Source: Candidatus Levyibacteriota bacterium
GTDB taxonomy: Bacteria; Patescibacteriota; Microgenomatia; Levybacterales; UBA12049
Length of the DNA stretch: 64,000 nucleotides
Assembly (NCBI GenBank): GCA_027334565.1
Contig: DAHWUP010000002.1
Coordinates: 13,203-77,202, forward strand
Direction of reading: 5' to 3'
The translations under genes were made by a program, and so were the position numbers. How positions within the stretch are numbered: position 1 is the stretch's first letter; each line of letters starts with the position of its first letter. Shown here piece after piece: positions 894 to 53,615 of the stretch. The notes beneath the pieces are model-generated. The model was not told the origin of the DNA, did not search any database, and worked only from the letters and a program-made list of their open reading frames with translations.

Positions 894-1571
894 ATGGAAA
901 AAAGGGAAAGATCACCCGTTCAAGAACTGGAATTACCTCATGTTGATGCTTTGATTGTATTGGGAAGGAATTTCCAGCCGGGATTTAACAGGAAAACCTT
1001 AGCCGAGCAAAGATTTAACTTAAGCCCGGGATCAAGGATCAACGATCTTCCTGCAGGATTATTATTAAAGGCAGGGTTGACGGATACTCTGATTATTTCG
1101 ACCGGCCATACCGCCGGTACAAACGTGCGCTCGGAAGCTAAGGCCATGAAAGACCATATTCAGGGAATATTCAAAAATATACCTGACAGCTCATTTATTT
1201 TGGAGGAAACTTCAATCGACACGGAAGGCAATGCCAGGGAGGTTAAAAAAATTATCGATGCGCATCCGGAATTACAAACATTCGGCTTACTTACAGACAG
1301 CAGTCATATGGAAAGAGCTGTACGGCTTTTCAAAAAAGCCGGAATATCGGTAATACCGTTTGATGCCCTGGCAATCATGCGAAATATGCGACCAACCTTA
1401 ATAGAACATTATTTAAAATCTGAGGTTTACCGTAAAACGGAAAAACAAGAAAGAAATGCGCGAATAGTACAAACTTTACCTGTTTTACATCCTTTAACCT
1501 CAAGGGTTTTGCATCAGGTTGCTCTTCGAACCAGAAATCCTAACACTTACAATCCGTATTATAAACGCTAG
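894..1571 (+). CDS. DUF218 / YdcF(ElyC/SanA)-like domain protein
   Basis: Contains the S-x-DTxxNA motif of DUF218 (SIDTEGNA) and a VLG core typical of the YdcF family. Confidence 0.65.
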   Translation: MEKRERSPVQELELPHVDALIVLGRNFQPGFNRKTLAEQRFNLSPGSRINDLPAGLLLKAGLTDTLIISTGHTAGTNVRSEAKAMKDHIQGIFKNIPDSSFILEETSIDTEGNAREVKKIIDAHPELQTFGLLTDSSHMERAVRLFKKAGISVIPFDALAIMRNMRPTLIEHYLKSEVYRKTEKQERNARIVQTLPVLHPLTSRVLHQVALRTRNPNTYNPYYKR

Positions 1572-1607: not shown

Positions 1608-2060
1608 ATGAAAACGATTCTGTTTACCGATTACGGTTATAAACAATTAAAAGCCAAGCTGGATACCGAAATGAATAAAAGACCCGGCGCCGTAATAGCC
1701 CTGCAAAAAGGAAGGGATATGGGCGATTTATCGGAAAACGGTTTATATAAAGCTGCAAAAATGGAACTTAGCAATATCGATAGACAGATAAGATATCTTA
1801 AACACCTGCTTAAATACGGCAAGCCAACTGCGCCTAAAGACAATTCAACCATTCAGTTTGGGCATTTCGTTACGATCGAAGACAAAACGGGACGAAAGAC
1901 ATATCAAATAGTGGGCGAATACGAAGCCAATCCCGGTGATTATAAAATATCTTTTATATCACCCCTTGGCAAGAACCTATTGGGAAAAGGAATAGGAAAC
2001 AAAATTCATCTTAAGACCATAAGAGGCATGAACGAATATTTAATCATTAAAATCGCTTAA
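1608..2060 (+). CDS. greA: Transcription elongation factor GreA
   Basis: GDLSENGLYKAAK matches the GreA/GreB acidic-finger motif (GDLSENAEY.AAK). About 150 aa with a C-terminal FKBP-like domain. Start taken at MKTIL (1608) rather than ORF-track 1584. Confidence 0.8.
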   Translation: MKTILFTDYGYKQLKAKLDTEMNKRPGAVIALQKGRDMGDLSENGLYKAAKMELSNIDRQIRYLKHLLKYGKPTAPKDNSTIQFGHFVTIEDKTGRKTYQIVGEYEANPGDYKISFISPLGKNLLGKGIGNKIHLKTIRGMNEYLIIKIA

Positions 2061-3220
2061 AGATCAAAGCCGAGAACTTTCAAAAATTCCCTGGTTTTGA
2101 CCGGATCGCTTTTCCCGATATTTTCATAGATCTCTTTCAGTACGGACGGTGTATCTAAATCCTCCTCGAGTAACGCCAGCAGCTTATAAGTCGGATCAAA
2201 CCGGCGTGTCTTTCCCGATCTTATCCATTGCAAAATATCTTTAAATTTTTTGTCGGCATTGTTCATTGCCTTTTCCGTATATTCCCAGTCATTTCGATAG
2301 TGGTTTGACAAAAGCATAAAACGGATCGAATTCGCGGAAAATTTTTCCTTCAAATCCGAAATCATCACCAAGTTTCCCAACGATTTGGACATCTTTTCAC
2401 CTTTGTACGAAACTTGTCCGGTATGCATCCAATACTTTGCAAAAGGAATTTTTCCTGTGGCTTTTTCCGATTGCGCTATTTCCGCTTCATGGTGTGGGTA
2501 AATAAGATCTTTTCCCCCGCCGTGAATATCAATTTGTTCGCCCAAAGAACTTACCGCCATAGCCGAACATTCGATATGCCACCCGGGTCTCCCCTTACCG
2601 AAAGGACTGCTAAAAGCAGGTATATGTTTGGGTTGATCGTCTTCTGTTTTCCTCCAAAGTGTGATGTCAAGGGGGTTGTGTTTATCCTTGTTGTCGATAT
2701 CCTCTTCAAAATCACGCGCTATTTTCAGCATGTCCTCTTCGTGTAATCCGGATAGTTTTCCGTAGTCTTTGTCCTTTTTAACGTCGAGATAAACATTTCC
2801 GTCGTAAATATAAGCCGACTTATTATCAAGAAGTTTTTCGATAAGAACGACCATCATCGGAATTTGTTCGGAAGCAAAAAGATAATGGTCGGGTTTTAAC
2901 CAATTTAGAAAGTTCATATCATTAAGGAATTTTCTTGTCCAAAAGGAGGATAAGTTTTCCCAGGAAACGTTTTGTTCTTTCGCCCGTTTTAAGATATCAT
3001 TATCCCTGTCGTTTATGTCGGTTACGTTTTGCGAGTAATCAACCCGGTAGCCTTTATACTTAAAAAATCTTATAAGTGCGTCAAATGAAATATATGTGAA
3101 GGCATGACCCAGGTGGGTCGTGTCGTATGGTGTGATACCGCAAACATAAATTGTTACGGTCTTATCTTTCAGTGTTTCAAAATACTGAATGTTTTTGGTC
3201 AAAGTATTATAAATTTTCAT
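2057..3220 (-). CDS. cysS: Cysteinyl-tRNA synthetase catalytic core (class I; lacks C-terminal anticodon-binding domain) or MshC-like cysteine ligase
   Basis: Carries HIGH-type GITPYDTTHLGHA, KMSKS (KMSKSLGN) and the Zn/Cys-binding GWHIEC motif of CysRS. Collinear with E. coli CysRS residues 1-380 but ends about 80 aa early. Confidence 0.8.
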   Translation of the reverse strand: MKIYNTLTKNIQYFETLKDKTVTIYVCGITPYDTTHLGHAFTYISFDALIRFFKYKGYRVDYSQNVTDINDRDNDILKRAKEQNVSWENLSSFWTRKFLNDMNFLNWLKPDHYLFASEQIPMMVVLIEKLLDNKSAYIYDGNVYLDVKKDKDYGKLSGLHEEDMLKIARDFEEDIDNKDKHNPLDITLWRKTEDDQPKHIPAFSSPFGKGRPGWHIECSAMAVSSLGEQIDIHGGGKDLIYPHHEAEIAQSEKATGKIPFAKYWMHTGQVSYKGEKMSKSLGNLVMISDLKEKFSANSIRFMLLSNHYRNDWEYTEKAMNNADKKFKDILQWIRSGKTRRFDPTYKLLALLEEDLDTPSVLKEIYENIGKSDPVKTREFLKVLGFDL

Positions 3221-3272
3221 AAGAAGTAAATCATACTATATTTTAAGTGAATAGTGTATAATCCAAAAACAC

Positions 3273-3977
3273 ATGAAAACGCTTTTAATCTTTGCGCATC
3301 CCGACGATGAAACCTTTTCAAGCGGAGGGACAATAGCAAAATTAACATCTAAAGGTAATGTAGTAAATTTAATCACAGCCACCAAAGGCGAGGCAGGACA
3401 GGTTGGCGATCCACCGGTTACCGACAGGAAGCATATTGCTAAAGTACGGGAACAGGAGTTAAGAAATGCCGCCAAAATCCTGGGAATTTCAAAGATCCAT
3501 TTTTTGGGGCTAATTGACGGAACCCTACATAAAGTCAAAACCGAAGCGATAGTAAAAAAAGTTTTGCCGATTCTCAAACAGGAAAAGCCTGACGTGATTA
3601 TCACTTTCGATTCAACCGGCGCTTCAAACCATCCGGATCATATCGCAATGAGTAAAGCAGCGACCATAGCTTTCAACCGATACGCGGTTTCCGTTAAAAA
3701 ACACATCAGACTGTATCATACTGCCATTCCGCTTTCAAACCTAAAGAAACTTGAAAAAACCGGTATGTCGTACAACGCTTTCGGAAAAATGAAAGGAGTC
3801 TCGGATGAACTGATAACCACCAAATCCGACATTTCCAAACAATTTAGAAAAAAAGTTAAAGCTTTAAAGCAACACCGAACGCAGCACAAGGATTGGGAAA
3901 GATTTTTAAAAAGAGAATTTGCTGTTGATTTGAACAAAGAATATTTTACCCTAATCTCCGAGAACGAAATCGGCTAA
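3273..3977 (+). CDS. PIG-L/LmbE family N-acetylglucosaminyl deacetylase (BshB/MshB-like)
   Basis: N-terminal AHPDDE motif and downstream HPDH (NHPDHIAMS) are diagnostic of LmbE-like Zn deacetylases. Confidence 0.8.
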   Translation: MKTLLIFAHPDDETFSSGGTIAKLTSKGNVVNLITATKGEAGQVGDPPVTDRKHIAKVREQELRNAAKILGISKIHFLGLIDGTLHKVKTEAIVKKVLPILKQEKPDVIITFDSTGASNHPDHIAMSKAATIAFNRYAVSVKKHIRLYHTAIPLSNLKKLEKTGMSYNAFGKMKGVSDELITTKSDISKQFRKKVKALKQHRTQHKDWERFLKREFAVDLNKEYFTLISENEIG

Positions 3978-7037: not shown

Positions 7038-9482
7038 TTAAGGGGTCGGCGTTGGTGTCTGGGTCGGCGTTGGTGTCTGGGTCGGCGTTGAACCTGAAGT
7101 CGGTGTCGGTGTCGGCGTGGTAGCGGATGAACTCGGATACTGGTAATCCGAGGTTTCGGTAGGCGGATAATACTCCGGATGATCGGCCGCATAGGTCTGC
7201 TTTATCCATGCGTCTATTCCATCCTGCCACCGGTTTTTGCCGTCCGTTGAAATCGGGTCATTTTCCTTAAACACGATGTAGTCTTTAACGGTATAATCTC
7301 CGTGGTCTATCTCGGCCTGATTGGCAAGTTTACCGCTTTGATGATTGGATAATTTGATTTTGGCATAAATCGGTGAAGGGGAGGTCGGCTCCGTACCTTT
7401 GATAAAGTACTCGCTTCTTGTCGGCTCTCCCGACACCGGCAGACCTCCACCATAAGCATCGATTAGCATTGCGATTACATCGTCAGGTTTTTGCGGCGGC
7501 TGGTCGGGTTTTCCCTTTAAAACAAAGCTAATGATCTTATTCCAGATGGGTGCAGCACCGGTGATTCCCGAAGCTACCTTGTTCATCGGGCTATTATCGT
7601 TATTTCCCACCCAGACGCCGACGACATATGACGGGGTATACCCGATGGTCCAGTTATCCCTGATATCGTTGGTGGTTCCGGTTTTCACGGATACGCTCGG
7701 ATGTCCGGCAACGACCAACTGGGAATATAAACCGAATTCGGCACTTCTGGCATTGTTATCAAGCAGGATATGGGAAATCAGGAAACTTACTTCCGGTGAA
7801 AATATCCGTTGCGGCTGGGGTGAATTATATTTATAGAGTACGTTACCTTTAGAATCGTCAACTTCAAGTATGCTTACCAAAGGCATTTTTTCTCCTCCGT
7901 TGGCAAATACCCCGTATGCCTCCATTTCATCGATCAACCGAACGTCCCTTCCGCCCAAAACCAGTGAATAACCGACGCTTTGCAAATTGGCCGGAGTCGG
8001 TTGCCAGTTTTCGATTCCCATGTCGTATGCGTTTTGCATGACATTCTTAATTCCCACCATCGCCAACATTTTTACCGCGGGAACGTTGATGGAATTTGCA
8101 AGAGCAAATCTTACCTGGATAGGACCCCGGTATTTGCCGTCGTAATTTACCGGTATGTAATCGGGTTCGCTGTCCGTCGCTTTAAAATTGGTCGCAACAT
8201 CCATCAAAAGGGTTGCAGCAGTGTACCCTCTGGTAAAAGCGGTAGCATACGTAATTGGCTTAAGCGACGATCCGGGCTGTCGATATGACAACGCTGCGTT
8301 GAAATTACCATCGTTCTTGGTATCAAAATAATCCTCGCTTCCCACCATTGCCAAAATTTGCCCCGTCTTAGGATCGGTAACCATTGCAGCTGCGTTGGTC
8401 AAATGAAATTCGTTTTTATCCTTGGCAACTTCGCTTTTGACGATTTGTTCCGCCTGTTGTTCGATATTATAATCTAAAGTTGTTTTAACCCGTAAGCCAC
8501 CGTTTTCAACCACCTGTTCACCGAACTGATTAATTAACTGCTGCTTAACGTAAAAAACAAAGTGTGGTGCCTTGATGCCGGTGTTGTTTTCCGAGAAAGT
8601 TGTATCCGCGATTTCTTTGTTCGCCGCATCAGCCTGCTTTTGCGTGATATATCCGTCTCTCACCATTGCGCTTAACACTTCCTGGGTTCTTTGCAGATAA
8701 TATTTGTTTCCGGAAAACGGCGAGTAGGTCGACGGGCTTTGCGGAAGACCGGCCAAAAATGCACATTGTGCCAAGTCGAGGTCTTTGACATCTTTACCAA
8801 AATAAGTCTGCGCCGCGGCCTCAACGCCAACCGCCGTCCCGCCATAAGGCACGTCATTTAGGTACATTTCGAGGATCTGGTCCTTCGAATATTTCCTGTC
8901 CACCTGGATCGATAAGATCAGTTCCTTTATTTTCCTCGGCAATGTCTGTTCGGACGTTAAAAGCACATTTTTTACCAGCTGCTGAGTCAATGTCGATCCT
9001 CCGGAAACTCCCCTAAGAAGGATAATATCGCGTATGGCTCTTAAATATCCGGTGATAGAAAATCCGCTGTTTTGATAAAAGGTTCTGTCCTCAATGGAGA
9101 TCGTCCCCTGTTGCAAGTACTTAGGTATATTATTTATAGTTACGTAAGAACGGTTCTGGTTTTGATAAACCGAATAAAGCAAAACACCGTTCCTGTCGTA
9201 GATACCGCTTGATTGGCTGGATTGCGCGGCAATTAACTTACCCGGGGCAGGCAAGTCCCTTCCGTACCAGACAAACAAAACTACGGTAAGTAAAATAATT
9301 CCGATCAAACCGAAAAAAGCCAGTTTTGCCAGCCTTTGGTATAAAACCAGTTTGGGTGTGCGGCTAAGATTACGATTAAGATTGCGGAAAGGATTATACC
9401 TTTTTGGAATGCTGGGAAGACTTAGGATGAAGTACTTACTCCTCCTTCGTGAAGTTCTGGCGTAATCGAGCATAAACAACAA
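7038..9482 (-). CDS. Class A penicillin-binding protein (PBP1A-type bifunctional transglycosylase/transpeptidase) with Thr-Pro-rich C-terminal tail
   Basis: N-terminal TM anchor, GT51 glycosyltransferase motifs (RTFYQNSGFS..., GGSTLTQQL), transpeptidase SxxK/SxN-type region. C-terminus is TPTPTPTSGSTPTQTPTPTQTPTPTP. Confidence 0.9.
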   Translation of the reverse strand: MLFMLDYARTSRRRSKYFILSLPSIPKRYNPFRNLNRNLSRTPKLVLYQRLAKLAFFGLIGIILLTVVLFVWYGRDLPAPGKLIAAQSSQSSGIYDRNGVLLYSVYQNQNRSYVTINNIPKYLQQGTISIEDRTFYQNSGFSITGYLRAIRDIILLRGVSGGSTLTQQLVKNVLLTSEQTLPRKIKELILSIQVDRKYSKDQILEMYLNDVPYGGTAVGVEAAAQTYFGKDVKDLDLAQCAFLAGLPQSPSTYSPFSGNKYYLQRTQEVLSAMVRDGYITQKQADAANKEIADTTFSENNTGIKAPHFVFYVKQQLINQFGEQVVENGGLRVKTTLDYNIEQQAEQIVKSEVAKDKNEFHLTNAAAMVTDPKTGQILAMVGSEDYFDTKNDGNFNAALSYRQPGSSLKPITYATAFTRGYTAATLLMDVATNFKATDSEPDYIPVNYDGKYRGPIQVRFALANSINVPAVKMLAMVGIKNVMQNAYDMGIENWQPTPANLQSVGYSLVLGGRDVRLIDEMEAYGVFANGGEKMPLVSILEVDDSKGNVLYKYNSPQPQRIFSPEVSFLISHILLDNNARSAEFGLYSQLVVAGHPSVSVKTGTTNDIRDNWTIGYTPSYVVGVWVGNNDNSPMNKVASGITGAAPIWNKIISFVLKGKPDQPPQKPDDVIAMLIDAYGGGLPVSGEPTRSEYFIKGTEPTSPSPIYAKIKLSNHQSGKLANQAEIDHGDYTVKDYIVFKENDPISTDGKNRWQDGIDAWIKQTYAADHPEYYPPTETSDYQYPSSSATTPTPTPTSGSTPTQTPTPTQTPTPTP
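7040..7105. repeat. Tandem ~21-bp repeat (gggtcggcgttggtgtctg x3, last partial) encoding the TP-rich tail of the PBP
   Basis: Direct reading: gggtcggcgttggtgtctgg gtcggcgttggtgtctgg gtcggcgttgaacc. Confidence 0.8.
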
Positions 9483-16152: not shown

Positions 16153-16686
16153 TTATAAAATATCTGCCTGAAACGTCAACCTGTACACCGATAGATCCGA
16201 ATTGTACACCAGACTTTGTATGCTAAAATTGGATATTTTACTATTTTTATTGACCGAATCGATCAAACCGTTGATGTAATCGTTCATTGACATAAGCGAA
16301 GCACCTGTCACAGTGATCGATAATGAACCGTTATCGAGTATCATTTGGGTTACCGTTAGGTCCGACGGCAAAATGGTCATGAACTGATTGACTATTTGTG
16401 GATAATCTTTACGTTTATTAAGTAAAATCTGGATGTTATGAACTCTGTCCTGCGTTAACACCACCGTCACTATCCTTTGATGTAGTTGCGAAATTCCCTG
16501 CAGGGTTTGATTCTGACTGTTTTTAACCGCGTTGATAGGCAAAAGCAAGGTAATGGCGAAAAATATAATCGAAATCAGTCCGACACAAATAATTGAGCAT
16601 AGAGCGAGTATTTTTACTATCTTTTGCTGTTTAAACTGATTCTCAACTTCTACACTTCTTCCCGGTGCCAGATTAATTTCATTCAT
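16153..16686 (-). CDS. pilN: Type IV pilus assembly protein PilN-like
   Basis: Short cytoplasmic N-terminus, TM helix, periplasmic domain. Overlaps pilM stop. Gene order pilM-pilN-pilO. Confidence 0.6.
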   Translation of the reverse strand: MNEINLAPGRSVEVENQFKQQKIVKILALCSIICVGLISIIFFAITLLLPINAVKNSQNQTLQGISQLHQRIVTVVLTQDRVHNIQILLNKRKDYPQIVNQFMTILPSDLTVTQMILDNGSLSITVTGASLMSMNDYINGLIDSVNKNSKISNFSIQSLVYNSDLSVYRLTFQADIL

Positions 16687-17713
16687 AATCTCTCATTGCC
16701 AAACCGACTGCGATTGTATAATCCGCAGCATTGTCTATGATTTCCTTCGGAACCTCCTGAGACGCTAAAATCTTCCAGGGGTTGGCGATGGCTGTTTCAA
16801 TGCCTGAGTTATTGGCAAAATATAATTCAATTCCCGGTAACTTGGCCGATCCACCGCATAGTATGATCTGTCTTATCGGTGAGTCGTTCTGATATTTTTG
16901 CGAATAATAGGCGATGGATTTTTTGATTTCAGCCAAAATGGAATTTAAGATTGGTACGGTTGCCCGGCTGATTTTTCCACCCAACGATTTTTCGGATACT
17001 CCATAAACCCTTTTATACTCTTCCGCCTGTTGGGGCGTAAGTCCGAAATCCGTAGCAATTGCCCTGTTGATTGCGGCACCGCCCAAGGACATCGAATAAG
17101 TAAATATCATTATCCCGTTTTTAACAATCGCGAAAGAAGTGCTTATCGCACCGATGTTAACGATAAGACTGGTCGGATAAGTTTCATCCAATACCAAAGC
17201 CCGTAAGGTTGAAAGGATCTCTGTTTCCATCCCCTTGACCGAAAGTCCCGCCATTTGAGCGACTCTTTGATATTTATTAACCAATACCGTTGGTGCCCCA
17301 ACCATCAAAACCTGCATCTTTCCCGCAGTTCCTTTATCCAACGGTCTTTTTAAAACATTCCAAACCAAAGTTATATTTTGCAGGGGAACGGGAATATATT
17401 GTTCTGCTTCCCAATATATGGCCGAGGCCAGTTCCTTATCGGAAATCACAGGCATATCCAACACCTTGGTGTAAACCTGATTTTCGGGCAAAGCAATGTT
17501 TACCAAGCTGGAATTGATACCGGTATCTTTTACCATTTTTGCTACGGTCTGTGCCATCGCTTCTTCGTCAAGAGGAGAGCCGGACATCATTCCCTTGGGA
17601 GGTGAAGGAACAATTGATGCGGCCTTTAACACGAACGACTTGTTCTTGCCCGAAAGCATAACAAGTTTGATAGATGTTGCACCGATATCGAGACCGAAAG
17701 ACTCTTTATTCAT
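16679..17713 (-). CDS. pilM: Type IV pilus assembly protein PilM (actin-like ATPase fold)
   Basis: FGLDIGATSIKLV start and actin/FtsA-like fold motifs (ILCGGSAKLPG). Confidence 0.8.
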   Translation of the reverse strand: MNKESFGLDIGATSIKLVMLSGKNKSFVLKAASIVPSPPKGMMSGSPLDEEAMAQTVAKMVKDTGINSSLVNIALPENQVYTKVLDMPVISDKELASAIYWEAEQYIPVPLQNITLVWNVLKRPLDKGTAGKMQVLMVGAPTVLVNKYQRVAQMAGLSVKGMETEILSTLRALVLDETYPTSLIVNIGAISTSFAIVKNGIMIFTYSMSLGGAAINRAIATDFGLTPQQAEEYKRVYGVSEKSLGGKISRATVPILNSILAEIKKSIAYYSQKYQNDSPIRQIILCGGSAKLPGIELYFANNSGIETAIANPWKILASQEVPKEIIDNAADYTIAVGLAMRDYE

Positions 17714-18600
17714 TACGGCTGAAACAGATTATAAGGAAAGAATTCGGCAGGAACTTCGGGGTATCCCTCATAAACAGTAATCTTTCGGGTTGTACTGTTA
17801 TTGGCTGTACCTTGAGATGTAATTATCCTGCCTTGCGCCGGTAATGTGGGAGTTCCAAAAACGCCGATCGCTGTTCCCATGTAGATCGGGTTTATTCTGA
17901 TAAGAAGCACATTAGGAGGCAATACTCCCGAGCCAGAGGTAAGGGTTGCTCTGTATTGCAGGGTTTGCCCACCGATATTTGTAGTGGCCTGTGAAGTTGA
18001 GGTGGCCGTACCGAAATGATTTACCGCTCTTCTTGCCGAACACGGATCGATCGTAACCCTCTTAAGACTTGGTGCTGCTTTAGTGCCGTAAATAATGGCA
18101 ACCTCAAGCGCTGCATTATTGCAAGGATTATTTTTATCGTTTCCCCAGAAAATATCAAACTCGGAGCCCGACCAGCTTGTACTAAATGCCGTGGCAGGAT
18201 CGGAAGAGTAGGTTGTGACCCAGACATCGATCGCATCATCTTTGGAAACCAGGTCTCCGCCGTTTATCAAAAAATTTTGTGTGGTATTCTGGGTACTTAC
18301 GGTCGTAGAATATGAGGTTGCATTTGTGGTACCGGTCGTATTAAATGTTCCGACGATCGCGGGCGCCCCGGGTGCGGTATCGTTTTTCAATGCCTGTTCG
18401 ACTCCTGCCTCCGCTGCGGCCAGTGCTTTCTGCGAATTTGCTTGGTTGGTAGTATTTTTAACGTTTACGACACTGCGCGTGGCAATCGACAGGCCTACCG
18501 TCAAAGCGACCACCATTATTAAAACTACTATAAGAAGAGCCTGTCCTCCCTGGCTTTTGAGCCTATTTGTAAAAGTCATACTCTTAATATAGAGTAGCAA
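17713..18600 (-). CDS. PilX-N-like pseudopilin / pilus assembly protein
   Basis: N-terminus KSQGGQALLIVVLIMVVALTVGLSIATRS...AEAG resembles the PilX_N family hydrophobic anchor. Thr/Asn/Ser-rich extracellular part. Confidence 0.5.
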   Translation of the reverse strand: MLLYIKSMTFTNRLKSQGGQALLIVVLIMVVALTVGLSIATRSVVNVKNTTNQANSQKALAAAEAGVEQALKNDTAPGAPAIVGTFNTTGTTNATSYSTTVSTQNTTQNFLINGGDLVSKDDAIDVWVTTYSSDPATAFSTSWSGSEFDIFWGNDKNNPCNNAALEVAIIYGTKAAPSLKRVTIDPCSARRAVNHFGTATSTSQATTNIGGQTLQYRATLTSGSGVLPPNVLLIRINPIYMGTAIGVFGTPTLPAQGRIITSQGTANNSTTRKITVYEGYPEVPAEFFPYNLFQP

Positions 18601-18631
18601 TAAATCTTACGGCTTGTCAACTTCCCGAAAC

Positions 18632-19246
18632 TTAATTACTGTTCCGCGGTTGCACGCTGGTTTCAAAATCCAAACTGGACTTTTGTTCGGCCAGCTGGGC
18701 AGGGTTTAAAGGATTGAATGTTTGGACGGTGAACGAAATCGTTACCAGCGGACTGACTCCCGTGCCTGAACCGTTACAGAGGATCTGGCAGTTGGTAACA
18801 TACAGTGAACTATCTACCAAAGATGCCCCGTTTGAAGCGATCGTATAGGGCGGTGAATCGGTTTGTCCGTTGCAGCTGTAAACGGTGGTGCCTCCGTCAA
18901 AAGATTGAACCCGGATATATTTGTAAACCGTTGTTGAAGTTGACGGACAATCGGTTATATACGTACTTCCGTTCGTACCGTTGACATCGCATGAATTATT
19001 TAAAATACCGGGGTTGTTATCGGTGCTTACACCGCAAAAGTTTTGTGCATATGCGATTGTTTTACTGATCTGAGAAAGCGCATAATTTCCGTTTTGACGG
19101 ATATTGTTGACGCTTGAAGCTTTGTTTATCCCGCGAAGCGTACCGGTAATTATGCCCAAAGCAACGCCTCCTACAATGGTTAATATCATCAATACAACCA
19201 AAAGTTCTATTAATGTAAAACCTTGATCATTTAATGTTTTTTTCAT
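18632..19246 (-). CDS. Type IV (pseudo)pilin, minor
   Basis: Class III signal: KKTLNDQ G|FTLIELLVVLMIL (Gly-1, Phe+1, Glu+5). Confidence 0.7.
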   Translation of the reverse strand: MKKTLNDQGFTLIELLVVLMILTIVGGVALGIITGTLRGINKASSVNNIRQNGNYALSQISKTIAYAQNFCGVSTDNNPGILNNSCDVNGTNGSTYITDCPSTSTTVYKYIRVQSFDGGTTVYSCNGQTDSPPYTIASNGASLVDSSLYVTNCQILCNGSGTGVSPLVTISFTVQTFNPLNPAQLAEQKSSLDFETSVQPRNSN

Positions 19247-19728
19247 GGGTTAGGCGGATTAGCTATTTGTGCAAAACAGGAATCTAAGGTCACGTTTTCA
19301 CAATATTTGTTGCTTCCGGTACATTTGGAATCAGGCCAGGAAACGGATACCGTCACCTTTTCACCGGAACCGCAGCTAGCGTCGGCGGTGTTAATCACAA
19401 CCGACCGGATAAAATTATTATTATTACTTGTGATATTCGGGGTACTACAACCCCCGGTCGGAGAACCAAGGTCGGTAGAATTTTCAGCCAGGCAATAAGT
19501 CCCGGATACATAAGCCGAAAAGGCGCTCCAGTTGGAATCGCTTTGTTGTCGTACAATATCTAAAGCCTGCTGGGCATATTGGGTTGCCAGATTCTGGGTT
19601 TTGGAATAATCCGCATTATTTACGGTTGTTAATACTACCAGGGCTATAGATCCGATAATAATTGCCGCAACTCCCAATGCCAGCATCGCTTCAACCAGTG
19701 ATTGTCCTTTATCATTTATAATCATCAT
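19243..19728 (-). CDS. Type IV (pseudo)pilin, minor
   Basis: Start re-set to MMIINDKGQSLVEAMLALGVAAIIIG (prepilin motif with Glu+5). The ORF-track 76-aa N-terminal extension would overlap the upstream pilin; ATGA overlap with its stop. Confidence 0.65.
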   Translation of the reverse strand: MMIINDKGQSLVEAMLALGVAAIIIGSIALVVLTTVNNADYSKTQNLATQYAQQALDIVRQQSDSNWSAFSAYVSGTYCLAENSTDLGSPTGGCSTPNITSNNNNFIRSVVINTADASCGSGEKVTVSVSWPDSKCTGSNKYCENVTLDSCFAQIANPPNP

Positions 19729-20213
19729 CGTACAGTGATCACTCCCGCTGAACTTACATTTACGGTTTTGGATAGGCCGTTTTCCGAAAAAACATAATTT
19801 CCGCTGCCGGATACATTTCCCGTCAATAACAGGAAAATAATATCGTCCCAACCGCCGGTAACTCCGGGGAAAACTACGGTTGTTCCGAAACTTTTGGTAA
19901 ATAAACCGTCCTGTACGGTTCCGCAATCGGCATAAAGAGTATACTTGGTTTTCCATACCCTGACGCGGTAATCCTGCAAGGGTTTACCGGCACAATTTGC
20001 GTCAGTTGGCACAACCTGAGAATATGCATTCGATTTGGCGGTATTTAGGGTATTGACAAAATCCGACAGATCCTGCTGAAAAGCCTGGCTTTTATTATAA
20101 TTTACGAATGCGCTGACACCTACCGCCGAAATTATCCCAATTAAAGCGATGACAACCAGAAGTTCGATCAGGGTAAAACCCTTTGCGGCGAGCAGTAAAC
20201 CGTTTCTATTCAT
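19725..20213 (-). CDS. Type IV (pseudo)pilin
   Basis: MNRNGLLLAAK G|FTLIELLVVIALIGII is a class III signal peptide. Confidence 0.7.
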   Translation of the reverse strand: MNRNGLLLAAKGFTLIELLVVIALIGIISAVGVSAFVNYNKSQAFQQDLSDFVNTLNTAKSNAYSQVVPTDANCAGKPLQDYRVRVWKTKYTLYADCGTVQDGLFTKSFGTTVVFPGVTGGWDDIIFLLLTGNVSGSGNYVFSENGLSKTVNVSSAGVITVR

Positions 20214-20219
20214 AAAATC

Positions 20220-20681
20220 TTAGGGATTGGTTACCGTGTATGTAATTCCCGTTCCTCCGGCCACTGAACAAGACGCACCTCCGGCTGCTTGGGGATCGTT
20301 AACATTTTCCAGGCAGGCGGAAAGCGTATAAGAAACAACAGGTGTACCGCCGGGAGTATAGATATATGAACCTCCTTTGGGGTCTGTAGGAATAATCGAC
20401 ATGTAAATGATCGAACAATCAGGACTGCCAAACTTACCGGAGCAATCGTTTAAAAGCGCGGGGTAACTTCCGTTGTCCGAACGATACATCTCCAATGCGG
20501 ACTGAATTCGCCTCAAATCGGACTTCCTTTGCGTATCCCTCGCTTTTTGTAATTGCCCGAGCGGATTGACAATCACTATCAGTGTTCCCGCCATAATCCC
20601 GAGTATCGCAATCACAACGGTAAGTTCAATCAGCGTAAAACCCGCATGAGGATATGTAAACCGCTTAATTGTTCTTATCAT
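20220..20681 (-). CDS. GspG/PulG-like pseudopilin (type II secretion / T4P pilin family)
   Basis: HAGFTLIELTVVIAILGIMAG...QKARDTQRKSDLRRIQSALEMY is typical of the GspG N-terminal helix. Confidence 0.75.
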   Translation of the reverse strand: MIRTIKRFTYPHAGFTLIELTVVIAILGIMAGTLIVIVNPLGQLQKARDTQRKSDLRRIQSALEMYRSDNGSYPALLNDCSGKFGSPDCSIIYMSIIPTDPKGGSYIYTPGGTPVVSYTLSACLENVNDPQAAGGASCSVAGGTGITYTVTNP

Positions 20682-20726
20682 ATATTAATAGCCTAGCATA
20701 AATTTGATACGCTTGTCTATCGATTG

Positions 20727-21521
20727 CTATAATCCAAAAATCTTAAAGAATAAATAATTGAGCCGGCTTTGAAAAAAAAGCGTAAGAAAAGATCCTGCAA
20801 CCAGAAAAGGTCCGAAGGGCAGTGCGCTTTGAAATTTCTTTTTTTTAAGGAAAATCAAAAACAGGGCGCCTATTGCTCCTAATATGAAGGCCAGGTAAAG
20901 CGCAATGAATATTCCGGGAAAACCAAAAAACAATCCCAAAACAAACGACAGTTTTACATCACCACCTCCCATACCTTCTTTTCTTGTAAACAAATAAAAA
21001 ATATAAGAGACTGCGACAAAAAACAGCAAGCAGCCTATACCGGAAAGCAAGTGATTTACTATCACCGAAAGCGGGTTAAAAGAAAGCCAAAGTAAAATTA
21101 AAACAATGTCGAATATTAATATCGAATCGGGAATTATGCCTTTTTTAAAATCGATAAAAAATATTAAGATAAAACTGGAAATCATGGCTAGCAGATAAAA
21201 AAAGTAAAACAAAAACCTTAAATTTATTAGCGTAAGGGGAGTAATGAATATAAAAACGGCTATTGCAAACAAAAAACCCGTTACCAACTCTATTAAGGGA
21301 TAAAATAAAGACAATTTAGTTTTGCAGTAATGACATTTACCTTTCAGATAAACATAGGAAAAAATAGGAATCAAATCATACCAGGCAAGAATGTGTTTGC
21401 AGGTCTCGCAATATGAGCGGCCTACAAAAACAGACTCATGACGGGGAAATCTGTTAATTACTACGCCTAAAAAGCTCCCGATAAATAGACCGAATAAAAA
21501 CGCAAGAAAGACGTACATCAT
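20727..21521 (-). CDS. pilD: Prepilin peptidase PilD (A24 family)
   Basis: Tetra-Cys Zn motif CETCKH...CHYCKTK and multiple TM helices. Embedded among pilin genes. Confidence 0.85.
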   Translation of the reverse strand: MMYVFLAFLFGLFIGSFLGVVINRFPRHESVFVGRSYCETCKHILAWYDLIPIFSYVYLKGKCHYCKTKLSLFYPLIELVTGFLFAIAVFIFITPLTLINLRFLFYFFYLLAMISSFILIFFIDFKKGIIPDSILIFDIVLILLWLSFNPLSVIVNHLLSGIGCLLFFVAVSYIFYLFTRKEGMGGGDVKLSFVLGLFFGFPGIFIALYLAFILGAIGALFLIFLKKKKFQSALPFGPFLVAGSFLTLFFQSRLNYLFFKIFGL

Positions 21522-21551
21522 TATATATATCTTATTATATAAAAACCGGAT

Positions 21552-22100
21552 TTAATAGAGGGTTATACCGGCCGCAGGGGCCGTTGTGGCTGAGGCGATA
21601 CATCCTACGCCCGCTTTTCCTTGCGTAGAATCGTAGACAAACACTGCAGTTTGGCCTGTTGTACATTTGGCTTTAGTGAACGACTGATTAGATTCCGCGT
21701 CGGTCCAGACCAGGAAATTGGAAGTCCCGTTCTCCGAATAACAGAAAGTTCCTTGTGCGGCGGTGCCGGCCATTGTACCTCCGCAATTTGAATTTTGGGT
21801 AGGTGCCGTAATCGTATTCTTGATATCCTGAGAGTAAACAAGCACATTTTGCCAACCGGTAGAGAAGTTTGCGCCTGCAGGAGCTGTGCTTAACAACCCG
21901 GATTGTGCCGTGTAATAAGCCTGCACCGCGTGCCCCAACTGAGCTACATCGGAAAGCCTTCCGGAGTCCCTACCTCTTGCCAACTGTTCCAAAGGATTGA
22001 TGGCAACCAAAACTACGGCTGCCAAAATACCCAAAACTGCGATTACAATTAAAAGCTCGATCAGGGTGAAGCCTTTTGAGGATTTATATAACTTCTTCAT
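21552..22100 (-). CDS. pilA: Type IV major pilin (PilA-like)
   Basis: MKKLYKSSK G|FTLIELLIVIAVLGILAAVV with Cys-containing C-terminal domain. First pilin after pilC. Start set at 22100 (ORF track 22139). Confidence 0.7.
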   Translation of the reverse strand: MKKLYKSSKGFTLIELLIVIAVLGILAAVVLVAINPLEQLARGRDSGRLSDVAQLGHAVQAYYTAQSGLLSTAPAGANFSTGWQNVLVYSQDIKNTITAPTQNSNCGGTMAGTAAQGTFCYSENGTSNFLVWTDAESNQSFTKAKCTTGQTAVFVYDSTQGKAGVGCIASATTAPAAGITLY

Positions 22101-22202
22101 GTATATATAATGATATACATACATTTTAAAGTCTGTCAAGAGTCAATTTAAGGCCAGATATTTGAACTTGATAAATTAAGTTTTGAAAATGCCTTTGATT
22201 TA

Positions 22203-23414
22203 TTATTGGTTTCCAACCGAATTGATGAGGCTATATATCGGAGTGATCACCGAAATCAACAGGAAGGCGACACCTGCTCCCAGAATGATCATAATGATGG
22301 GTTCAAGAGCGGTTGTTAAGGTCTTGACCATCTGATCCGCCTCGCTCTCATAGTATTCCGAAGCTTTCATCAGACCCTCGTCGATCTTACCGGTCTGTTC
22401 GCCAACCTCAACCAACTGTATCAGCATTGGGGGAAATAATGTATAGCTGGACATCGAATCACCTATTCCGACGCCCTTTTCGACCATTTTTGCTACATCG
22501 ATAATGGCGGATTTATATAGAACGTTTCCCGTCGTATCCGCCGTTTCAAGCAAAGCCTGAACTACCAATGTGCCGGTGCCGACCAGAAGGCTTAAAGTCC
22601 TCGTAAATTCTGCCAGAATCGAATTGGAAAATAGCTTTCCGAATATCGGCAATCTTAGCAGTGCGCTATCGTAGATGAACCTGCCGTCGGTCGTATTTAT
22701 CCATTTTCTGAACGCAAAAATAACCACTGCAATAATTGCCAATACGACAGGCCAAGCTGTTACGATGAATTTTGACACATCCAACACTATCTGCGTAGGC
22801 AAAGGGATAGACACATTCATAGACGTGTATAAATCACTTAGTTGCGGTATCACGAAAAAAGTCATGATCATCATCACTCCGAACATCATGATGATGACAA
22901 TCGCAGGATACATCAATGCCGATTTTATTGTTGACTTAAGTTGTGACTGCCTCTCCATGTTCTCGGAAAGCCTCAAAAGTACCTTATCCAACAGCCCTCC
23001 CTGCTCACCGGCTTTTATCACCGAAACATAAATGGGCGTAAACACTTTAGGGTGCTTTTCTACCGCCTGACCCAAAGTTTTACCCTCCTGAACGTCATTG
23101 ATTATAGAGGTAATTACTTCGACGAAAGCCTGGTTCTTAATTTGGGCCTTTAAAAGTTCCAACGATTTTACCACCGTCAGACCCGAGGAGAGCATCGAAG
23201 AAAGCTGACGGGTAAAGATGATCAAATCCCTTGAACCGACCTTTTGTGACAAGAACGGCAAGTCGGACCAGAATTTATTGTCGATGCGGTCGATTGAAAT
23301 CGGCATCAGCGCTTTTTGTCTTAAATATTCGGCCGCGTCATCAATCGATTCCGTATCCAATAATCCGCGGGAAACATTTCCGTTATTATCTGTCGCTTTG
23401 TACCTGACTCTCAT
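22203..23414 (-). CDS. pilC: Type IV pilus platform protein PilC (GspF family)
   Basis: Two GspF repeats and 3 TM segments. About 400 aa. Confidence 0.9.
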   Translation of the reverse strand: MRVRYKATDNNGNVSRGLLDTESIDDAAEYLRQKALMPISIDRIDNKFWSDLPFLSQKVGSRDLIIFTRQLSSMLSSGLTVVKSLELLKAQIKNQAFVEVITSIINDVQEGKTLGQAVEKHPKVFTPIYVSVIKAGEQGGLLDKVLLRLSENMERQSQLKSTIKSALMYPAIVIIMMFGVMMIMTFFVIPQLSDLYTSMNVSIPLPTQIVLDVSKFIVTAWPVVLAIIAVVIFAFRKWINTTDGRFIYDSALLRLPIFGKLFSNSILAEFTRTLSLLVGTGTLVVQALLETADTTGNVLYKSAIIDVAKMVEKGVGIGDSMSSYTLFPPMLIQLVEVGEQTGKIDEGLMKASEYYESEADQMVKTLTTALEPIIMIILGAGVAFLLISVITPIYSLINSVGNQ

Positions 23415-23424
23415 ATAAAGATTC

Positions 23425-24492
23425 TTATTCTATCAAGCGCATCAATTCCTCAGTTCGAAGAGCATAGGCTTTGGCGGTTTCGATACTAACCGCCCCGGAC
23501 ATAACCAGCTGTGATAAAGAATGCTCAAGCGAGATCATTCCCGCATCCTGAGAGGTCTGGATGATCGAATCGATTAAATGCGTTTTTCCTTCCCGGATGG
23601 TACTTGCAACAGCCGAAGTGCCGACCAAAACCTCCACTGCGGGTATCCTGCCTCCGTTGACCATCGGGATCAACCTTTCCGATACCACTCCTTTAAGAGT
23701 AGCAGCCAGCTGAACCCTGACTTGCGCCTGTTGGCTGGCCGGAAAAGCATCGATTATCCTGTCTACCGTTTGTGCGGCAGAATTGGTATGCAAGGTGGAG
23801 AAGACCAAATGACCTGTCTCGGCGATGGTTAGTGCCGACGCGATGGTTTCGGGGTCCCTCATCTCACCCACAGAAACAACATCGGGATCCTCCCGAAGCG
23901 CCGACCTTAAAGCCATATTCCATGAATGGGTATCCACATCCATTTCTCTTTGGGAAATGATGCTTTTACCAGGAGGATAAACATACTCGATCGGATCTTC
24001 GATGGTCAGAATATGATTCGCAGTTTCAAGGTTTATCTCGTTGAGCATGGAAGAAATGGTTGTGGATTTACCGTGACCCGACGGACCGGTTACCAAAATG
24101 AAGCCTTGTTTAAGTTGAGCGAATGCGTGGCAAATCTTGGGTAAGTGGAGTTCCTCGACCGTTTTAATTTTCGGCTGCAGATATCTGAACGCAACACTCA
24201 TCAAACCTCTCTGATAATAAATATTGGCCCTGAACCTTCCCAGATCGCCATAAGCGCCTCCGCCAAAACCGAAGGAAAAATCGATTTCCTTGTTATTTAT
24301 CAACAGCTCCTTTTGTTCCGGTTTTAAAATCCCCATGAGCATCATCTCGATGTCTTTGGCTGCAAGCTGATTGTAACTTGTCAGATACCTTAATTCTCCG
24401 TCGATCCTTATCGCCGGATAATTTCCCGGTAAAAGGTGTAAATCCGATGCATTATTTTTAATTGTTAAATCCAATAGTTCCTGTATCGACAT
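23425..24492 (-). CDS. pilT: Twitching-motility retraction ATPase PilT
   Basis: Walker A VTGPSGHGKSTT, Asp box, His box. About 355 aa, PilT-size without the GspE N-domain. Confidence 0.9.
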   Translation of the reverse strand: MSIQELLDLTIKNNASDLHLLPGNYPAIRIDGELRYLTSYNQLAAKDIEMMLMGILKPEQKELLINNKEIDFSFGFGGGAYGDLGRFRANIYYQRGLMSVAFRYLQPKIKTVEELHLPKICHAFAQLKQGFILVTGPSGHGKSTTISSMLNEINLETANHILTIEDPIEYVYPPGKSIISQREMDVDTHSWNMALRSALREDPDVVSVGEMRDPETIASALTIAETGHLVFSTLHTNSAAQTVDRIIDAFPASQQAQVRVQLAATLKGVVSERLIPMVNGGRIPAVEVLVGTSAVASTIREGKTHLIDSIIQTSQDAGMISLEHSLSQLVMSGAVSIETAKAYALRTEELMRLIE

Positions 24493-24495
24493 AGT

Positions 24496-53530: not shown

Positions 53531-53560
53531 TGTGCGACGTAATAATATTATGCGACGTAT
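53531..53560. repeat. dif-like recombination site candidate / direct repeat doublet (tgcgacgta x2 around palindrome ataatattat), immediately 5' of the recombinase gene
   Basis: tgtgcgacgtaataatattatgcgacgtat. GTGCG and TTATG are in the same register as E. coli dif (GGTGCGCATAATGTATATTATGTTAAAT). Confidence 0.45.
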
Positions 53561-53615
53561 AGATTTGCCTGTCAAGGTTGACAGAAAGCCCAAAAATCAG
53601 GCATACTGAAATATA

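What the first reader, a model, noticed from the sequence alone, without database searches (positions are those of the whole stretch)
2057..3977. Truncated CysRS-like gene divergently paired with an LmbE/PIG-L deacetylase (MshC/MshB-like arrangement)
The CysRS homolog retains HIGH, KMSKS and the Zn/Cys-binding GWHIEC region but stops about 80 aa short of canonical CysRS. It therefore lacks the anticodon-binding domain.

This is the architecture of the mycothiol ligase MshC, which is a CysRS paralog.

Immediately adjacent and divergently transcribed is a PIG-L/LmbE deacetylase (AHPDDE, HPDH). This is the family of MshB/BshB, which deacetylates GlcNAc conjugates in low-molecular-weight thiol biosynthesis.

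Either this is the sole, minimised CysRS of a reduced genome, or the pair encodes a two-step Cys-ligation pathway for a thiol/glycoconjugate.
Basis: partly seen in the sequence, partly recalled or inferred. Interest (0 to 1): 0.5.

Follow-up and report, generated by a model that had tools for sequence, protein, structure and literature searches.

The report
Short CysRS-like ligase paired with LmbE
A cysteinyl-tRNA-synthetase relative that lacks its anticodon-reading domain sits head-to-head with a sugar deacetylase in an ultra-small (CPR) bacterium, and this pairing recurs and is even fused into one protein elsewhere, which points to a mycothiol-like cysteine-sugar pathway outside the Actinobacteria.

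Summary
A 387-aa CysRS homologue (2057-3220, minus strand) with HIGH, KMSKS and the Zn/Cys site ends at a real stop after the helical bundle. A 234-aa PIG-L/LmbE gene (3273-3977, plus strand) lies 52 bp away, divergent.

The short form is not a local truncation. It belongs to a clade of anticodon-domain-less CysRS homologues in Microgenomates (CPR), Chloroflexota and Actinobacteriota. Genuine MshC nests inside this clade.

The pairing is not chance. LmbE is the immediate neighbour in 15 of 27 CPR-type loci, in two orientations and with two LmbE subfamilies. Two divergent proteins fuse the two domains. In three loci an MshA-like GT4 glycosyltransferase sits beside the pair, and in two of them a histidine phosphatase as well.

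The catalytic core nevertheless keeps most CysRS-invariant residues. It passes NCBI's cysS cut-off and fails the MshC cut-off. No second cysS could be searched for genome-wide.

Best reading: a functionally coupled MshB/MshC-like module making a Cys-GlcN conjugate. The ligase may also be the cell's CysRS. This is a new variant of a known kind, with moderate-to-high interest.

The parts
2057..3220 (-). ABD-less CysRS-family cysteine ligase, 387 aa (Rossmann core + CP + SC fold + helical bundle; no C-terminal alpha/beta anticodon-binding domain)
3104..3115 (-). HIGH motif (HLGH, res 36-39) within the clade-typical CGITPYDTTHLGHAFTY
2669..2752 (-). CP1 loop (SGLHEEDMLKIARDFEEDIDNKDKHNPL). It is 4 residues longer than in full-length CysRS, and the canonical GAR motif is absent. 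The extra length is shared with MshC.
2567..2584 (-). GWHIEC (res 213-218), Zn/cysteine-binding region
2465..2497 (-). PHHEAEIAQSE (res 242-252). It keeps the His and Glu that align with E. coli His234 and Glu238. That these two residues are zinc ligands in CysRS is from my memory. The Glu is lost in MshC.
2381..2395 (-). KMSKS motif (res 276-280)
2060..2275 (-). C-terminal helical bundle (res 316-387) ending ...LGFDL, at the same end point as MshC
3221..3272 (.). 52-bp divergent intergenic region shared by the two genes
   Evidence: the promoter scan is not above chance
3273..3977 (+). PIG-L/LmbE family metal-dependent N-deacetylase/amidase, 234 aa ('type D' subfamily; best NCBIfam match is BshB2, below cut-off)
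3294..3311 (+). AHPDDE metal-binding/catalytic motif of LmbE
3630..3641 (+). HPDH motif of LmbE

Best explanation
The two genes form a conserved functional module of the MshB/MshC type.

**Proposed mechanism**
- The LmbE enzyme removes the N-acetyl group from a GlcNAc-glycoside (or cleaves the matching amide). This step is inferred from the family.
- The ABD-less CysRS-family enzyme activates cysteine as Cys-AMP on its intact Zn/HIGH/KMSKS site. The site is shown; the activity is inferred.
- It then transfers the cysteine to the freed sugar amine, giving a Cys-GlcN-X compound of the mycothiol/bacillithiol kind (inferred).
- In relatives, the upstream steps are encoded alongside: an MshA-like GT4 glycosyltransferase and a histidine-phosphatase-family phosphatase.

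**What is not settled**
- The aglycone X is unknown.
- It is unresolved whether the same enzyme also charges tRNA-Cys for translation. Its core keeps most CysRS-invariant residues, so a dual role is possible.
For: 1. **Clade.** On 323 catalytic-core columns of 235 sequences, 48 of 51 short proteins form one clan with no full-length CysRS inside. The clan includes M. smegmatis MshC and P0248. P0248 is a true MshC by HMM (517.9 bits against a cut-off of 485).
2. **Shared derived characters with MshC.**
   - Loss of the alpha/beta anticodon-binding domain, with the same C-terminal end.
   - A 27-residue CP1 loop in 38 of 48 short proteins, against 23 residues in 147 of 184 full-length CysRS. The GAR motif is lost.
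   - Changes at E. coli positions R42, K73 and N237.
   - The model superposes best on MshC: 3c8z rmsd 2.0 A with TM 0.89/0.87, against 1li5 at 3.1 A.
3. **Neighbourhood.**
   - A jackhmmer search over all ORFs of 166 loci (2.1 Mb) found 15 LmbE genes. Every one lies directly beside a short cysS, and none lies beside the 76 full-length cysS genes.
   - LmbE is the -1 gene in 15 of 27 CPR-type loci with enough flank.
   - Some pairs are divergent, as in the window. Others are co-directional with gaps of 1-9 bp.
   - Two LmbE subfamilies are involved, only 27-32% identical to each other.
   - The surrounding genes vary between loci.
4. **Fusions.** P0127 (634 aa) and P0293 (648 aa; 56% identical to P0127 over its full length) are single ORFs. 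Each joins the short CysRS to a PIG-L domain.
5. **Rest of a pathway.**
   - An MshA-like GT4 lies beside short cysS in L094, L081 and L097, and nowhere else in the 2.1 Mb. It scores 389.5 bits on TIGR03449 over positions 2-404 of 406.
   - A His_Phos_1 phosphatase lies beside short cysS in L094 and L081.
   - L094 carries all four genes.
Against: - The protein passes the curated cysS cut-off (377.7 against 340) and fails MshC (341.7 against 485.1). However, the LmbE-fused proteins and the cluster-embedded relatives score the same way.
- It keeps 80 of 93 positions that are at least 85% conserved in full-length CysRS. Eleven of these are lost in both MshC sequences, among them the residues aligning with E. 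coli H224, E238 and W254.
- In this lineage the pair sits inside the thrS-infC-rpmI-rplT...pheS-pheT translation cluster.
- No GT4, GNAT or inositol-phosphate synthase was found among the window ORFs that were scanned.
- LmbE is below every curated cut-off.
- Clan bootstrap is only 130/200, from a neighbour-joining tree. The MshA-like GT4 occurs in only 3 loci. There are only two fusion contigs.
- No full-length CysRS from Microgenomates turned up. This leaves open that the protein must serve translation.
Confidence: 0.55

Rival explanations
1. Plain housekeeping CysRS. The short form is simply this lineage's only cysteinyl-tRNA synthetase. It would recognise tRNA-Cys without reading the anticodon (through U73, the acceptor stem and the tRNA core). 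LmbE would be a functionally unrelated neighbour.
For: - It passes the TIGR00435 cut-off.
- It keeps the CysRS Zn site and 80 of 93 CysRS-conserved positions.
- NCBI names the family cysteine--tRNA ligase.
- It lies in a translation-gene cluster.
- ABD-less CysRS can charge tRNA: CysRS* and an engineered delta-ABD variant (PMC5389517).
- No full-length Microgenomates CysRS appeared among 120 relatives of a Wirthbacteria/Dojkabacteria-type enzyme.
- In 30 Chloroflexota-like loci the upstream gene is a TatD-like hydrolase (identified by eye), a context I take to be housekeeping.
Against: - It does not explain LmbE at position -1 in 15 of 27 loci, in two orientations and with two LmbE subfamilies.
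- It does not explain the two fusions.
- It does not explain the MshA-like GT4 and phosphatase neighbours.
- The canonical acceptor-stem GAR loop is replaced.
Confidence: 0.15
2. CysRS coupled to cysteine salvage. The protein is the cell's CysRS. LmbE acts as an amidase or deacetylase of the Mca/BshB2 type that frees cysteine or N-acetylcysteine from host-derived thiol conjugates. This would feed an organism presumed unable to make its own cysteine.
For: - The window's LmbE scores best on BshB2 (118.7 bits), and also on MshB (93.8) and Mca (91.2).
- Tight operons and fusions fit substrate channelling towards CysRS.
- That CPR bacteria generally lack amino-acid biosynthesis is established knowledge and was not tested here.
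Against: - The MshA-like glycosyltransferase and phosphatase beside the pair are biosynthetic steps, not salvage steps.
- The co-directional and fused LmbE type scores best on BshB1, the biosynthetic deacetylase.
- All of these scores are below the curated cut-offs.
Confidence: 0.12
3. Dedicated MshC-like ligase only. The protein has no tRNA function, and an unseen full-length cysS elsewhere in the genome serves translation.
For: - All the coupling evidence listed under the best explanation.
- MshC nests in the clan.
- Both short and full-length forms occur in Chloroflexia and in Dehalococcoidia, though in different MAGs.
- Full-length CysRS does exist in some CPR lineages (Dojkabacteria, Wirthbacteria).
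Against: - No full-length cysS in the window, and none within +-10 kb in 90 loci.
- No Microgenomates full-length CysRS was seen.
- The core is far less diverged from CysRS than MshC is.
- Net charge of the CPR proteins is not acidic as in MshC: +2.1 against -13. This is confounded by amino-acid composition.
Confidence: 0.18

Closest known systems
MshC (L-cysteine:GlcN-Ins ligase, TIGR03447; PDB 3C8Z, 8HFM)
   Same: - Class I CysRS-type core with Zn, HIGH and KMSKS.
- No alpha/beta anticodon-binding domain, and the same C-terminal end.
- A CP1 loop 4 residues longer than in CysRS.
- The same clan in the tree.
- The best structural superposition (rmsd 2.0-2.4 A).
- A partner LmbE deacetylase, with an MshA-like GT4 in relatives.
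   Different: - Scores 341.7 bits against a cut-off of 485.1.
- Keeps the CysRS residues aligning with E. coli Glu238, His224 and Trp254, which MshC has lost.
- The CP1 motif is FEED-x-DN rather than ERGG-x-PD.
- Occurs in CPR/Microgenomates, not Actinobacteria.
- To my recollection the actinobacterial msh genes are scattered, whereas here the genes are adjacent or fused.
- The acceptor is unknown, and no inositol-phosphate synthase was seen.
Canonical bacterial CysRS (TIGR00435; PDB 1LI5, 1U0B)
   Same: - Passes the curated HMM cut-off.
- Keeps 80 of 93 invariant core positions.
- Has the N-terminal MKIYNTLT...F strand.
- Keeps the Cys, His and Glu residues that align with the CysRS zinc site.
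- Has the SC fold and the helical bundle.
   Different: [quoted passage not shown]
- Lacks the GAR acceptor-stem loop.
- R42, K73 and N237 (E. coli numbering) are replaced.
- Clusters apart from all 184 full-length sequences.
CysRS* of Desulfobacterales (Mukai et al. 2016, PMC5389517)
   Same: A natural CysRS homologue without the anticodon-binding domain and with an altered CP1 motif. It is a precedent that an ABD-less CysRS can still charge a tRNA.
   Different: - CysRS* is a second copy beside a normal cysS.
- It is linked to selB*/selC* and is dedicated to a UCA-anticodon tRNA.
- No link to LmbE is reported.
- Its relationship to the present clan was not tested.
MshB / Mca / BshB1 / BshB2 (LmbE-type deacetylases and amidases of thiol pathways)
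   Same: PIG-L fold with the AHPDD and HxDH motifs. These are the best-scoring curated families for both LmbE subtypes.
   Different: - All scores are far below the cut-offs (window: BshB2 118.7 against 195; MshB 93.8 against 224).
- Two distinct subtypes are each paired with the short ligase.
- One subtype is fused to the ligase in P0127 and P0293.
Bacillithiol pathway (BshA-BshB-BshC)
   Same: A GT4 + LmbE + cysteine-adding logic that yields Cys-GlcN-X. No N-acetyltransferase was seen next to the module here.
   Different: - BshC is not a CysRS homologue.
- The GT4 here resembles MshA (389.5 bits), not BshA (110.3 bits).
- The presence of a phosphatase implies a phosphorylated acceptor.

Membership tests
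CysRS (cysteine--tRNA ligase, TIGR00435) | Class I catalytic core with HIGH and KMSKS | tested here: met
   HLGH at residues 36-39 and KMSKS at 276-280; Pfam tRNA-synt_1e E = 2.8e-102
CysRS (cysteine--tRNA ligase, TIGR00435) | Zn/cysteine-binding residues (E. coli C28, C209, H234, E238; ligand list from memory) | tested here: met
   C27, C218, H243 and E247 are present; all four columns are conserved in the CPR family
CysRS (cysteine--tRNA ligase, TIGR00435) | Score above the curated equivalog cut-off | tested here: met
   377.7 bits against 340, but only profile positions 1-327 of 466 are matched. LmbE-fused homologues also pass, so the cut-off does not discriminate.
CysRS (cysteine--tRNA ligase, TIGR00435) | C-terminal alpha/beta anticodon-binding domain (CysS_C, PF23493) | tested here: not met
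   No Pfam hit. The ORF stops after the helical bundle, and the model has helices only to residue 382.
CysRS (cysteine--tRNA ligase, TIGR00435) | CP1 acceptor-stem loop with the GAR motif (23-residue loop) | tested here: not met
   27-residue loop with ARDFEEDIDN in place of GAR
CysRS (cysteine--tRNA ligase, TIGR00435) | Aminoacylates tRNA-Cys; is the only CysRS of the genome | not testable with these tools
   Only 64 kb of a 170-kb contig is available, and whole genomes could not be scanned. There is no second copy in the window.
MshC (TIGR03447) | Score above the curated equivalog cut-off | tested here: not met
   341.7 bits against 485.1. The control MshC P0248 scores 517.9.
MshC (TIGR03447) | ABD-less architecture ending after the helical bundle | tested here: met
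   The alignment covers MshC profile positions 18-380 of 411. TM 0.89/0.87 and rmsd 2.0 A to 3c8z.
MshC (TIGR03447) | Groups with MshC rather than full-length CysRS in a core phylogeny | tested here: met
   Short clan of 48 sequences including MshC, with no full-length member. NJ bootstrap 130/200, which is moderate.
MshC (TIGR03447) | MshC-specific active-site substitutions (E238 to S/C, H224 to Q, W254 to Y; E. coli numbering) | tested here: not met
   The window protein keeps the CysRS residue at all 11 such positions.
MshC (TIGR03447) | Works with MshA, a phosphatase, MshB and MshD on a GlcN-inositol substrate | tested here: inconclusive
   LmbE is adjacent here. An MshA-like GT4 lies beside the pair in relatives L081, L094 and L097, and a His_Phos phosphatase in L081 and L094. 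Neither was found in the scanned part of the window. No MshD or Ino1 was seen anywhere.
MshB / BshB / Mca (LmbE thiol-pathway enzymes) | PIG-L fold with the AHPDD and HxDH motifs | tested here: met
   PF02585 E = 9.5e-37; AHPDDE at residues 8-13 and HPDH at 120-123
MshB / BshB / Mca (LmbE thiol-pathway enzymes) | Score above a curated equivalog cut-off | tested here: not met
   BshB2 118.7 against 195.25; MshB 93.8 against 224.35; Mca 91.2 against 277.15; BshB1 71.8 against 182.5

The most novel reading that the evidence does not exclude
In Microgenomates the short enzyme is the only CysRS homologue and is bifunctional. It would charge tRNA-Cys for translation. Together with the adjacent or fused LmbE, an MshA-like GT4 and a phosphatase, it would also ligate cysteine to a GlcN-glycoside to make a so far unknown low-molecular-weight thiol. 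It would then be a living intermediate between CysRS and MshC. It would also be the first thiol cofactor pathway proposed for CPR bacteria.
Probability: 0.22. Interest if true: 0.88.

Novelty: new variant of a known kind. Interest (0 to 1): 0.64.

Why it matters
- **Where mycothiol-type chemistry occurs.** To my knowledge mycothiol biosynthesis and its CysRS-derived ligase are regarded as restricted to Actinobacteria, and I know of no low-molecular-weight thiol described for CPR/Patescibacteria. Searches of the held literature found nothing linking mycothiol-type pathways to CPR or Chloroflexota.
- **What a conserved module implies.** The LmbE plus ABD-less-CysRS module is conserved, sometimes fused, and sometimes accompanied by an MshA-like GT4 (three loci) and a phosphatase (two loci). 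That would extend this chemistry to ultra-small bacteria and to Chloroflexota.
- **Origin of MshC.** It would root MshC in an old short-CysRS clade rather than in an actinobacterial duplication.
- **Annotation.** Thousands of database entries are called either 'cysteine--tRNA ligase' (NCBI) or 'MshC' (JGI) for the same family. Neither name has a tested basis.
- **Translation.** If the enzyme is also the only CysRS, it raises how tRNA-Cys identity is kept without reading the anticodon.

Tried and rejected
1. **Early view that the adjacency is mere local synteny.** This came from 5 look-ups: 2 syntenic loci with LmbE and 3 without. I rejected it after 80 further loci and a profile search.
2. **The genome-contig scan with the whole protein** was swamped by the universal WHIECSAM motif. 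It returned mostly full-length CysRS.
3. **Looking up the window's own protein** to find its contig returned 'not on record'.
4. **Searches for a second cysS.**
   - None in the window.
   - None within +-10 kb in 90 loci.
5. **Fishing for a full-length Microgenomates CysRS.**
   - Cluster names of 30 representatives gave archaea, Dadabacteria, Dehalococcoidia and Wirthbacteria.
   - A search with the Wirthbacteria enzyme gave DPANN archaea and one Dojkabacteria.
   - No Microgenomates sequence appeared. This is suggestive only.
6. **Literature and supplements** on truncated CPR CysRS, K15526, or mycothiol in CPR or Chloroflexota gave nothing.
7. **Net-charge comparison by domain** is confounded by amino-acid composition and does not decide the matter.
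8. **Promoter and terminator scan** of the region did not exceed shuffled controls.
9. **No tRNA genes** in the window.
10. **HMM cut-offs as a discriminator** were rejected, because the LmbE-fused proteins also pass cysS.
Full report
**What is in the window**

ORF 2057..3220 (-) encodes a 387-aa protein. ORF 3273..3977 (+) encodes a 234-aa protein. They are separated by a 52-bp divergent spacer.

The first protein:
- It is a class I CysRS-type enzyme: Pfam tRNA-synt_1e, E = 2.8e-102.
- It carries HLGH (36-39), GWHIEC (213-218), PHHEAEIAQSE (242-252) and KMSKS (276-280).
- It ends at a genuine TAA that overlaps the stop of the convergent greA. The shortness is therefore not a frameshift artefact.
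- Alignment to solved CysRS structures runs to the helical bundle and then stops at ...LKVLGFDL.
- A high-confidence model (pLDDT 94.5) shows four terminal helices and no alpha/beta anticodon-binding domain.

The second protein is a PIG-L/LmbE enzyme (E = 9.5e-37) with AHPDDE and HPDH.

**Genomic setting**

- The surrounding genes are rpmI, rplT, a DUF218 gene, greA, then the pair, then pheS, pheT, a PBP1a and tyrS (gene names up to the PBP1a by eye translations).
- Further along lie recG, rnc, trmD, a type IV pilus cluster, gyrB/gyrA and an H+-pyrophosphatase.
- The closest homologues of the CysRS-like protein are named Levy-, Collier- and Daviesbacteria. The organism is therefore a Microgenomates-type CPR bacterium.
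- The window contains no second CysRS homologue, no detached anticodon-binding ORF and no tRNA gene.

**The short form is a clade, not a local truncation**

- The best 120 database relatives are all 354-422 aa long.
- Short forms also occur in Chloroflexota and Acidimicrobiales, in genomes of 3-4.6 Mb. 'Minimisation in a reduced genome' is therefore not the explanation.
- I built a neighbour-joining tree on 323 catalytic-core columns of 235 sequences. The set comprised:
  - representatives at 50% identity;
  - CysRS genes from GTDB genomes, almost all full-length;
  - M. smegmatis MshC, recovered from the PDB alignment.
- In this tree, 48 of 51 short proteins form one clan with no full-length CysRS inside. 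Bootstrap support is 130/200.
- MshC nests inside the clan. One of the two MshC references, P0248, passes the MshC cut-off at 517.9 bits against 485.
- The clan shares derived characters:
  - a CP1 loop of 27 residues rather than 23, in which the canonical GAR motif is lost. That motif is implicated in reading the first acceptor-stem pair (PMC5389517);
  - replacements at E. coli positions R42, K73 and N237.
- The model superposes a little better on MshC (rmsd 2.0-2.4 A, TM 0.89-0.91) than on CysRS (3.1-4.3 A).

**But the core is still very CysRS-like**

- NCBIfam gives cysS 377.7 bits (cut-off 340, passed on profile positions 1-327 of 466). It gives MshC 341.7 bits (cut-off 485.1, failed).
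- Of 93 columns at least 85% conserved in 184 full-length CysRS, the CPR family consensus keeps 80. Other short forms keep 86. The two MshC sequences keep 69 and 65.
- At 11 columns the CPR family agrees with CysRS while both MshC sequences differ. These include the residues aligning with E. coli Glu238, His224 and Trp254. Only 2 columns go the other way.
- An important control: the LmbE-fused proteins and the cluster-embedded relatives described below behave the same way. They score 360-392 bits on cysS and 334-377 on MshC. Neither the cut-off nor these residues therefore decide between tRNA charging and sugar ligation.

**The pairing with LmbE is conserved**

My first five neighbourhood look-ups suggested plain local synteny. 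That view did not survive a larger sample.
- A metagenome scan with the clade-specific motifs CGITPYDT and THLGHAFT gave 80 more loci.
- A jackhmmer search with the window's LmbE ran over every ORF of all 166 loci (2.1 Mb). It found 15 LmbE genes, including the window's own. Every one lies directly next to a short cysS. None lies elsewhere, and none lies beside the 76 full-length cysS genes.
- Among CPR-type loci (cysS at least 54% identical to the window's) with enough upstream sequence, 13 of 24 have LmbE at position -1. Three further look-ups added two more with LmbE and one without.

The arrangements differ between loci:
- Divergent, as in the window: L084, L085, L089, L133, L154 and L170.
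- Co-directional lmbE-then-cysS, with gaps of 1-9 bp: L090, L092, L094, L100, L111, L120, L148, L161 and L171.
- Downstream of cysS: L097.

Further points:
- The two main arrangements use different LmbE subfamilies that are only 27-32% identical. The window type scores best on BshB2, the other on BshB1.
- Genes outside the pair vary: pheST, radA-yacL, gdh, enolase, a transposase (several of these names assigned by eye).
- LmbE-linked members fall in at least five separate branches of the clan.

**Fusions and the rest of a pathway**

- P0127 (634 aa) and P0293 (648 aa; 56% identical to P0127 over its full length) come from two unrelated contigs. Each is a single ORF: a short CysRS, a linker of about 16 residues, then a PIG-L domain.
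- In L094 (CPR-type, GC 0.41) the order is: His_Phos_1 (reverse strand) | LmbE, cysS, His_Phos_1 (forward strand) | GT4 (reverse strand).
- In L081 (a 1.14-Mb CPR contig) the order is: GT4 (reverse strand) | His_Phos_1, cysS (forward strand).
- In L097 the order is: cysS, LmbE, GT4 (all forward).
- The GT4 matches MshA far better than any other curated family. It scores 389.5 bits over positions 2-404 of 406, and the next family scores 139.9. It is still below the 462.5 cut-off.
- In the 2.1 Mb examined, this GT4 occurs only next to short cysS.
- Glycosyltransferase, phosphatase, deacetylase and Cys ligase is the MshA-MshA2-MshB-MshC order of reactions (established pathway knowledge).
- No inositol-phosphate synthase or MshD-like GNAT was seen. 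The aglycone is therefore unknown.

**Interpretation**

- Shown: the anatomy; the clade; the recurrent and fused pairing; the occasional full gene set.
- Inferred: that LmbE frees a sugar amine and the ligase transfers Cys-AMP-activated cysteine to it.
- I give this coupled MshB/MshC-like reading 0.55.
- Unresolved: whether the same enzyme is also the cell's CysRS.
  - For a dual or sole role: the conserved CysRS core; the precedent of ABD-less CysRS charging tRNA (PMC5389517); and the absence of any Microgenomates full-length CysRS among relatives of the Wirthbacteria/Dojkabacteria enzyme.
  - Against it: the replaced acceptor-stem loop, and the presence of both forms in different MAGs within Chloroflexota classes.
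- Whole genomes could not be scanned with these tools.

**Comparison and novelty**

- The closest known system is MshB/MshC of mycothiol biosynthesis. The closest known enzyme by curated score is CysRS.
- Membership in MshC, MshB, BshB or Mca fails the curated cut-offs. Membership in CysRS fails on the anticodon-binding domain and the CP1 loop.
- I found no paper linking mycothiol-type genes to CPR or Chloroflexota, or describing short CPR CysRS.
- Databases name the same family 'cysteine--tRNA ligase' (NCBI) or 'MshC' (JGI).
- I rate it a new variant of a known kind, with interest 0.64.

**Caveats**

- The tree is neighbour-joining with moderate support and only two MshC references.
- The metagenomic loci are not phylogenetically independent. 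Most were assigned to a taxon by similarity and GC content only.
- The full four-gene set is seen in one locus. The GT4 is seen in three loci.
- Only two fusion contigs are known.

Noticed in passing
L102-L163 (30 loci, e.g. L106 4334-5164 and L130 1856-2941): In high-GC, Chloroflexota-like loci the gene immediately upstream of the short cysS, and co-directional with it, is a TatD-like hydrolase in 30 of 30 cluster members. The family was recognised by eye from the sequence, not by a family search. This is a second, different conserved partner of the short form.
   Followed up: partly
P0154, P0262, P0193 (representative search; Pfam): Other CysRS fusions exist. One has a hexapeptide-repeat transferase N-terminal to a full-length CysRS (711 aa). 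One joins a CysRS catalytic domain to an M20 peptidase (637 aa). One is an 858-aa protein with two tandem CysRS parts.
   Followed up: no
L081 8112-9370: The MshA-like GT4 next to the short cysS on the 1.14-Mb CPR contig is split into two overlapping ORFs (289 and 148 aa). This could be a frameshift, a pseudogene, or an indel error in the assembly.
   Followed up: no
L110 7634-7873: A tRNA-Phe, tRNA-Gly and tRNA-Cys(GCA) cluster lies about 2 kb upstream of a short cysS (46% identical to the window's).
   Followed up: no
window 16153-26241: A type IV pilus gene cluster on the minus strand: PilM, PilX-like and N-methyl pilins, an A24 prepilin peptidase, T2SSF and two T2SSE ATPases.
   Followed up: partly
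window 53616-55142 and 48369-49514: A GH18 (chitinase-like) protein and a GT87 glycosyltransferase. The window's LmbE also resembles archaeal diacetylchitobiose deacetylases in the PDB, so a role in GlcNAc or chitin handling was considered. These genes are about 45-50 kb from the pair.
   Followed up: no
window 7038-7200: The PBP1a-like protein (7038-9482, minus strand) ends in a Thr/Pro-rich low-complexity tail (...TPTPTPTSGSTPTQTPTPTQTPTPTP).
   Followed up: no
window 52598-53593: A tyrosine recombinase (phage-integrase family) gene lies upstream of, and divergent from, the GH18 gene.
   Followed up: no
window 894-1571: A DUF218/ElyC-like gene is inserted between rplT and greA. It is absent at that position in relatives L084, L085 and L170.
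   Followed up: no
P0485, P0504: The full-length CysRS of Wirthbacteria and of a Dojkabacteria (CPR) MAG is closest to DPANN archaeal enzymes (Diapherotrites, Woesearchaeota). This suggests an archaeal-type CysRS in some CPR lineages.
   Followed up: no
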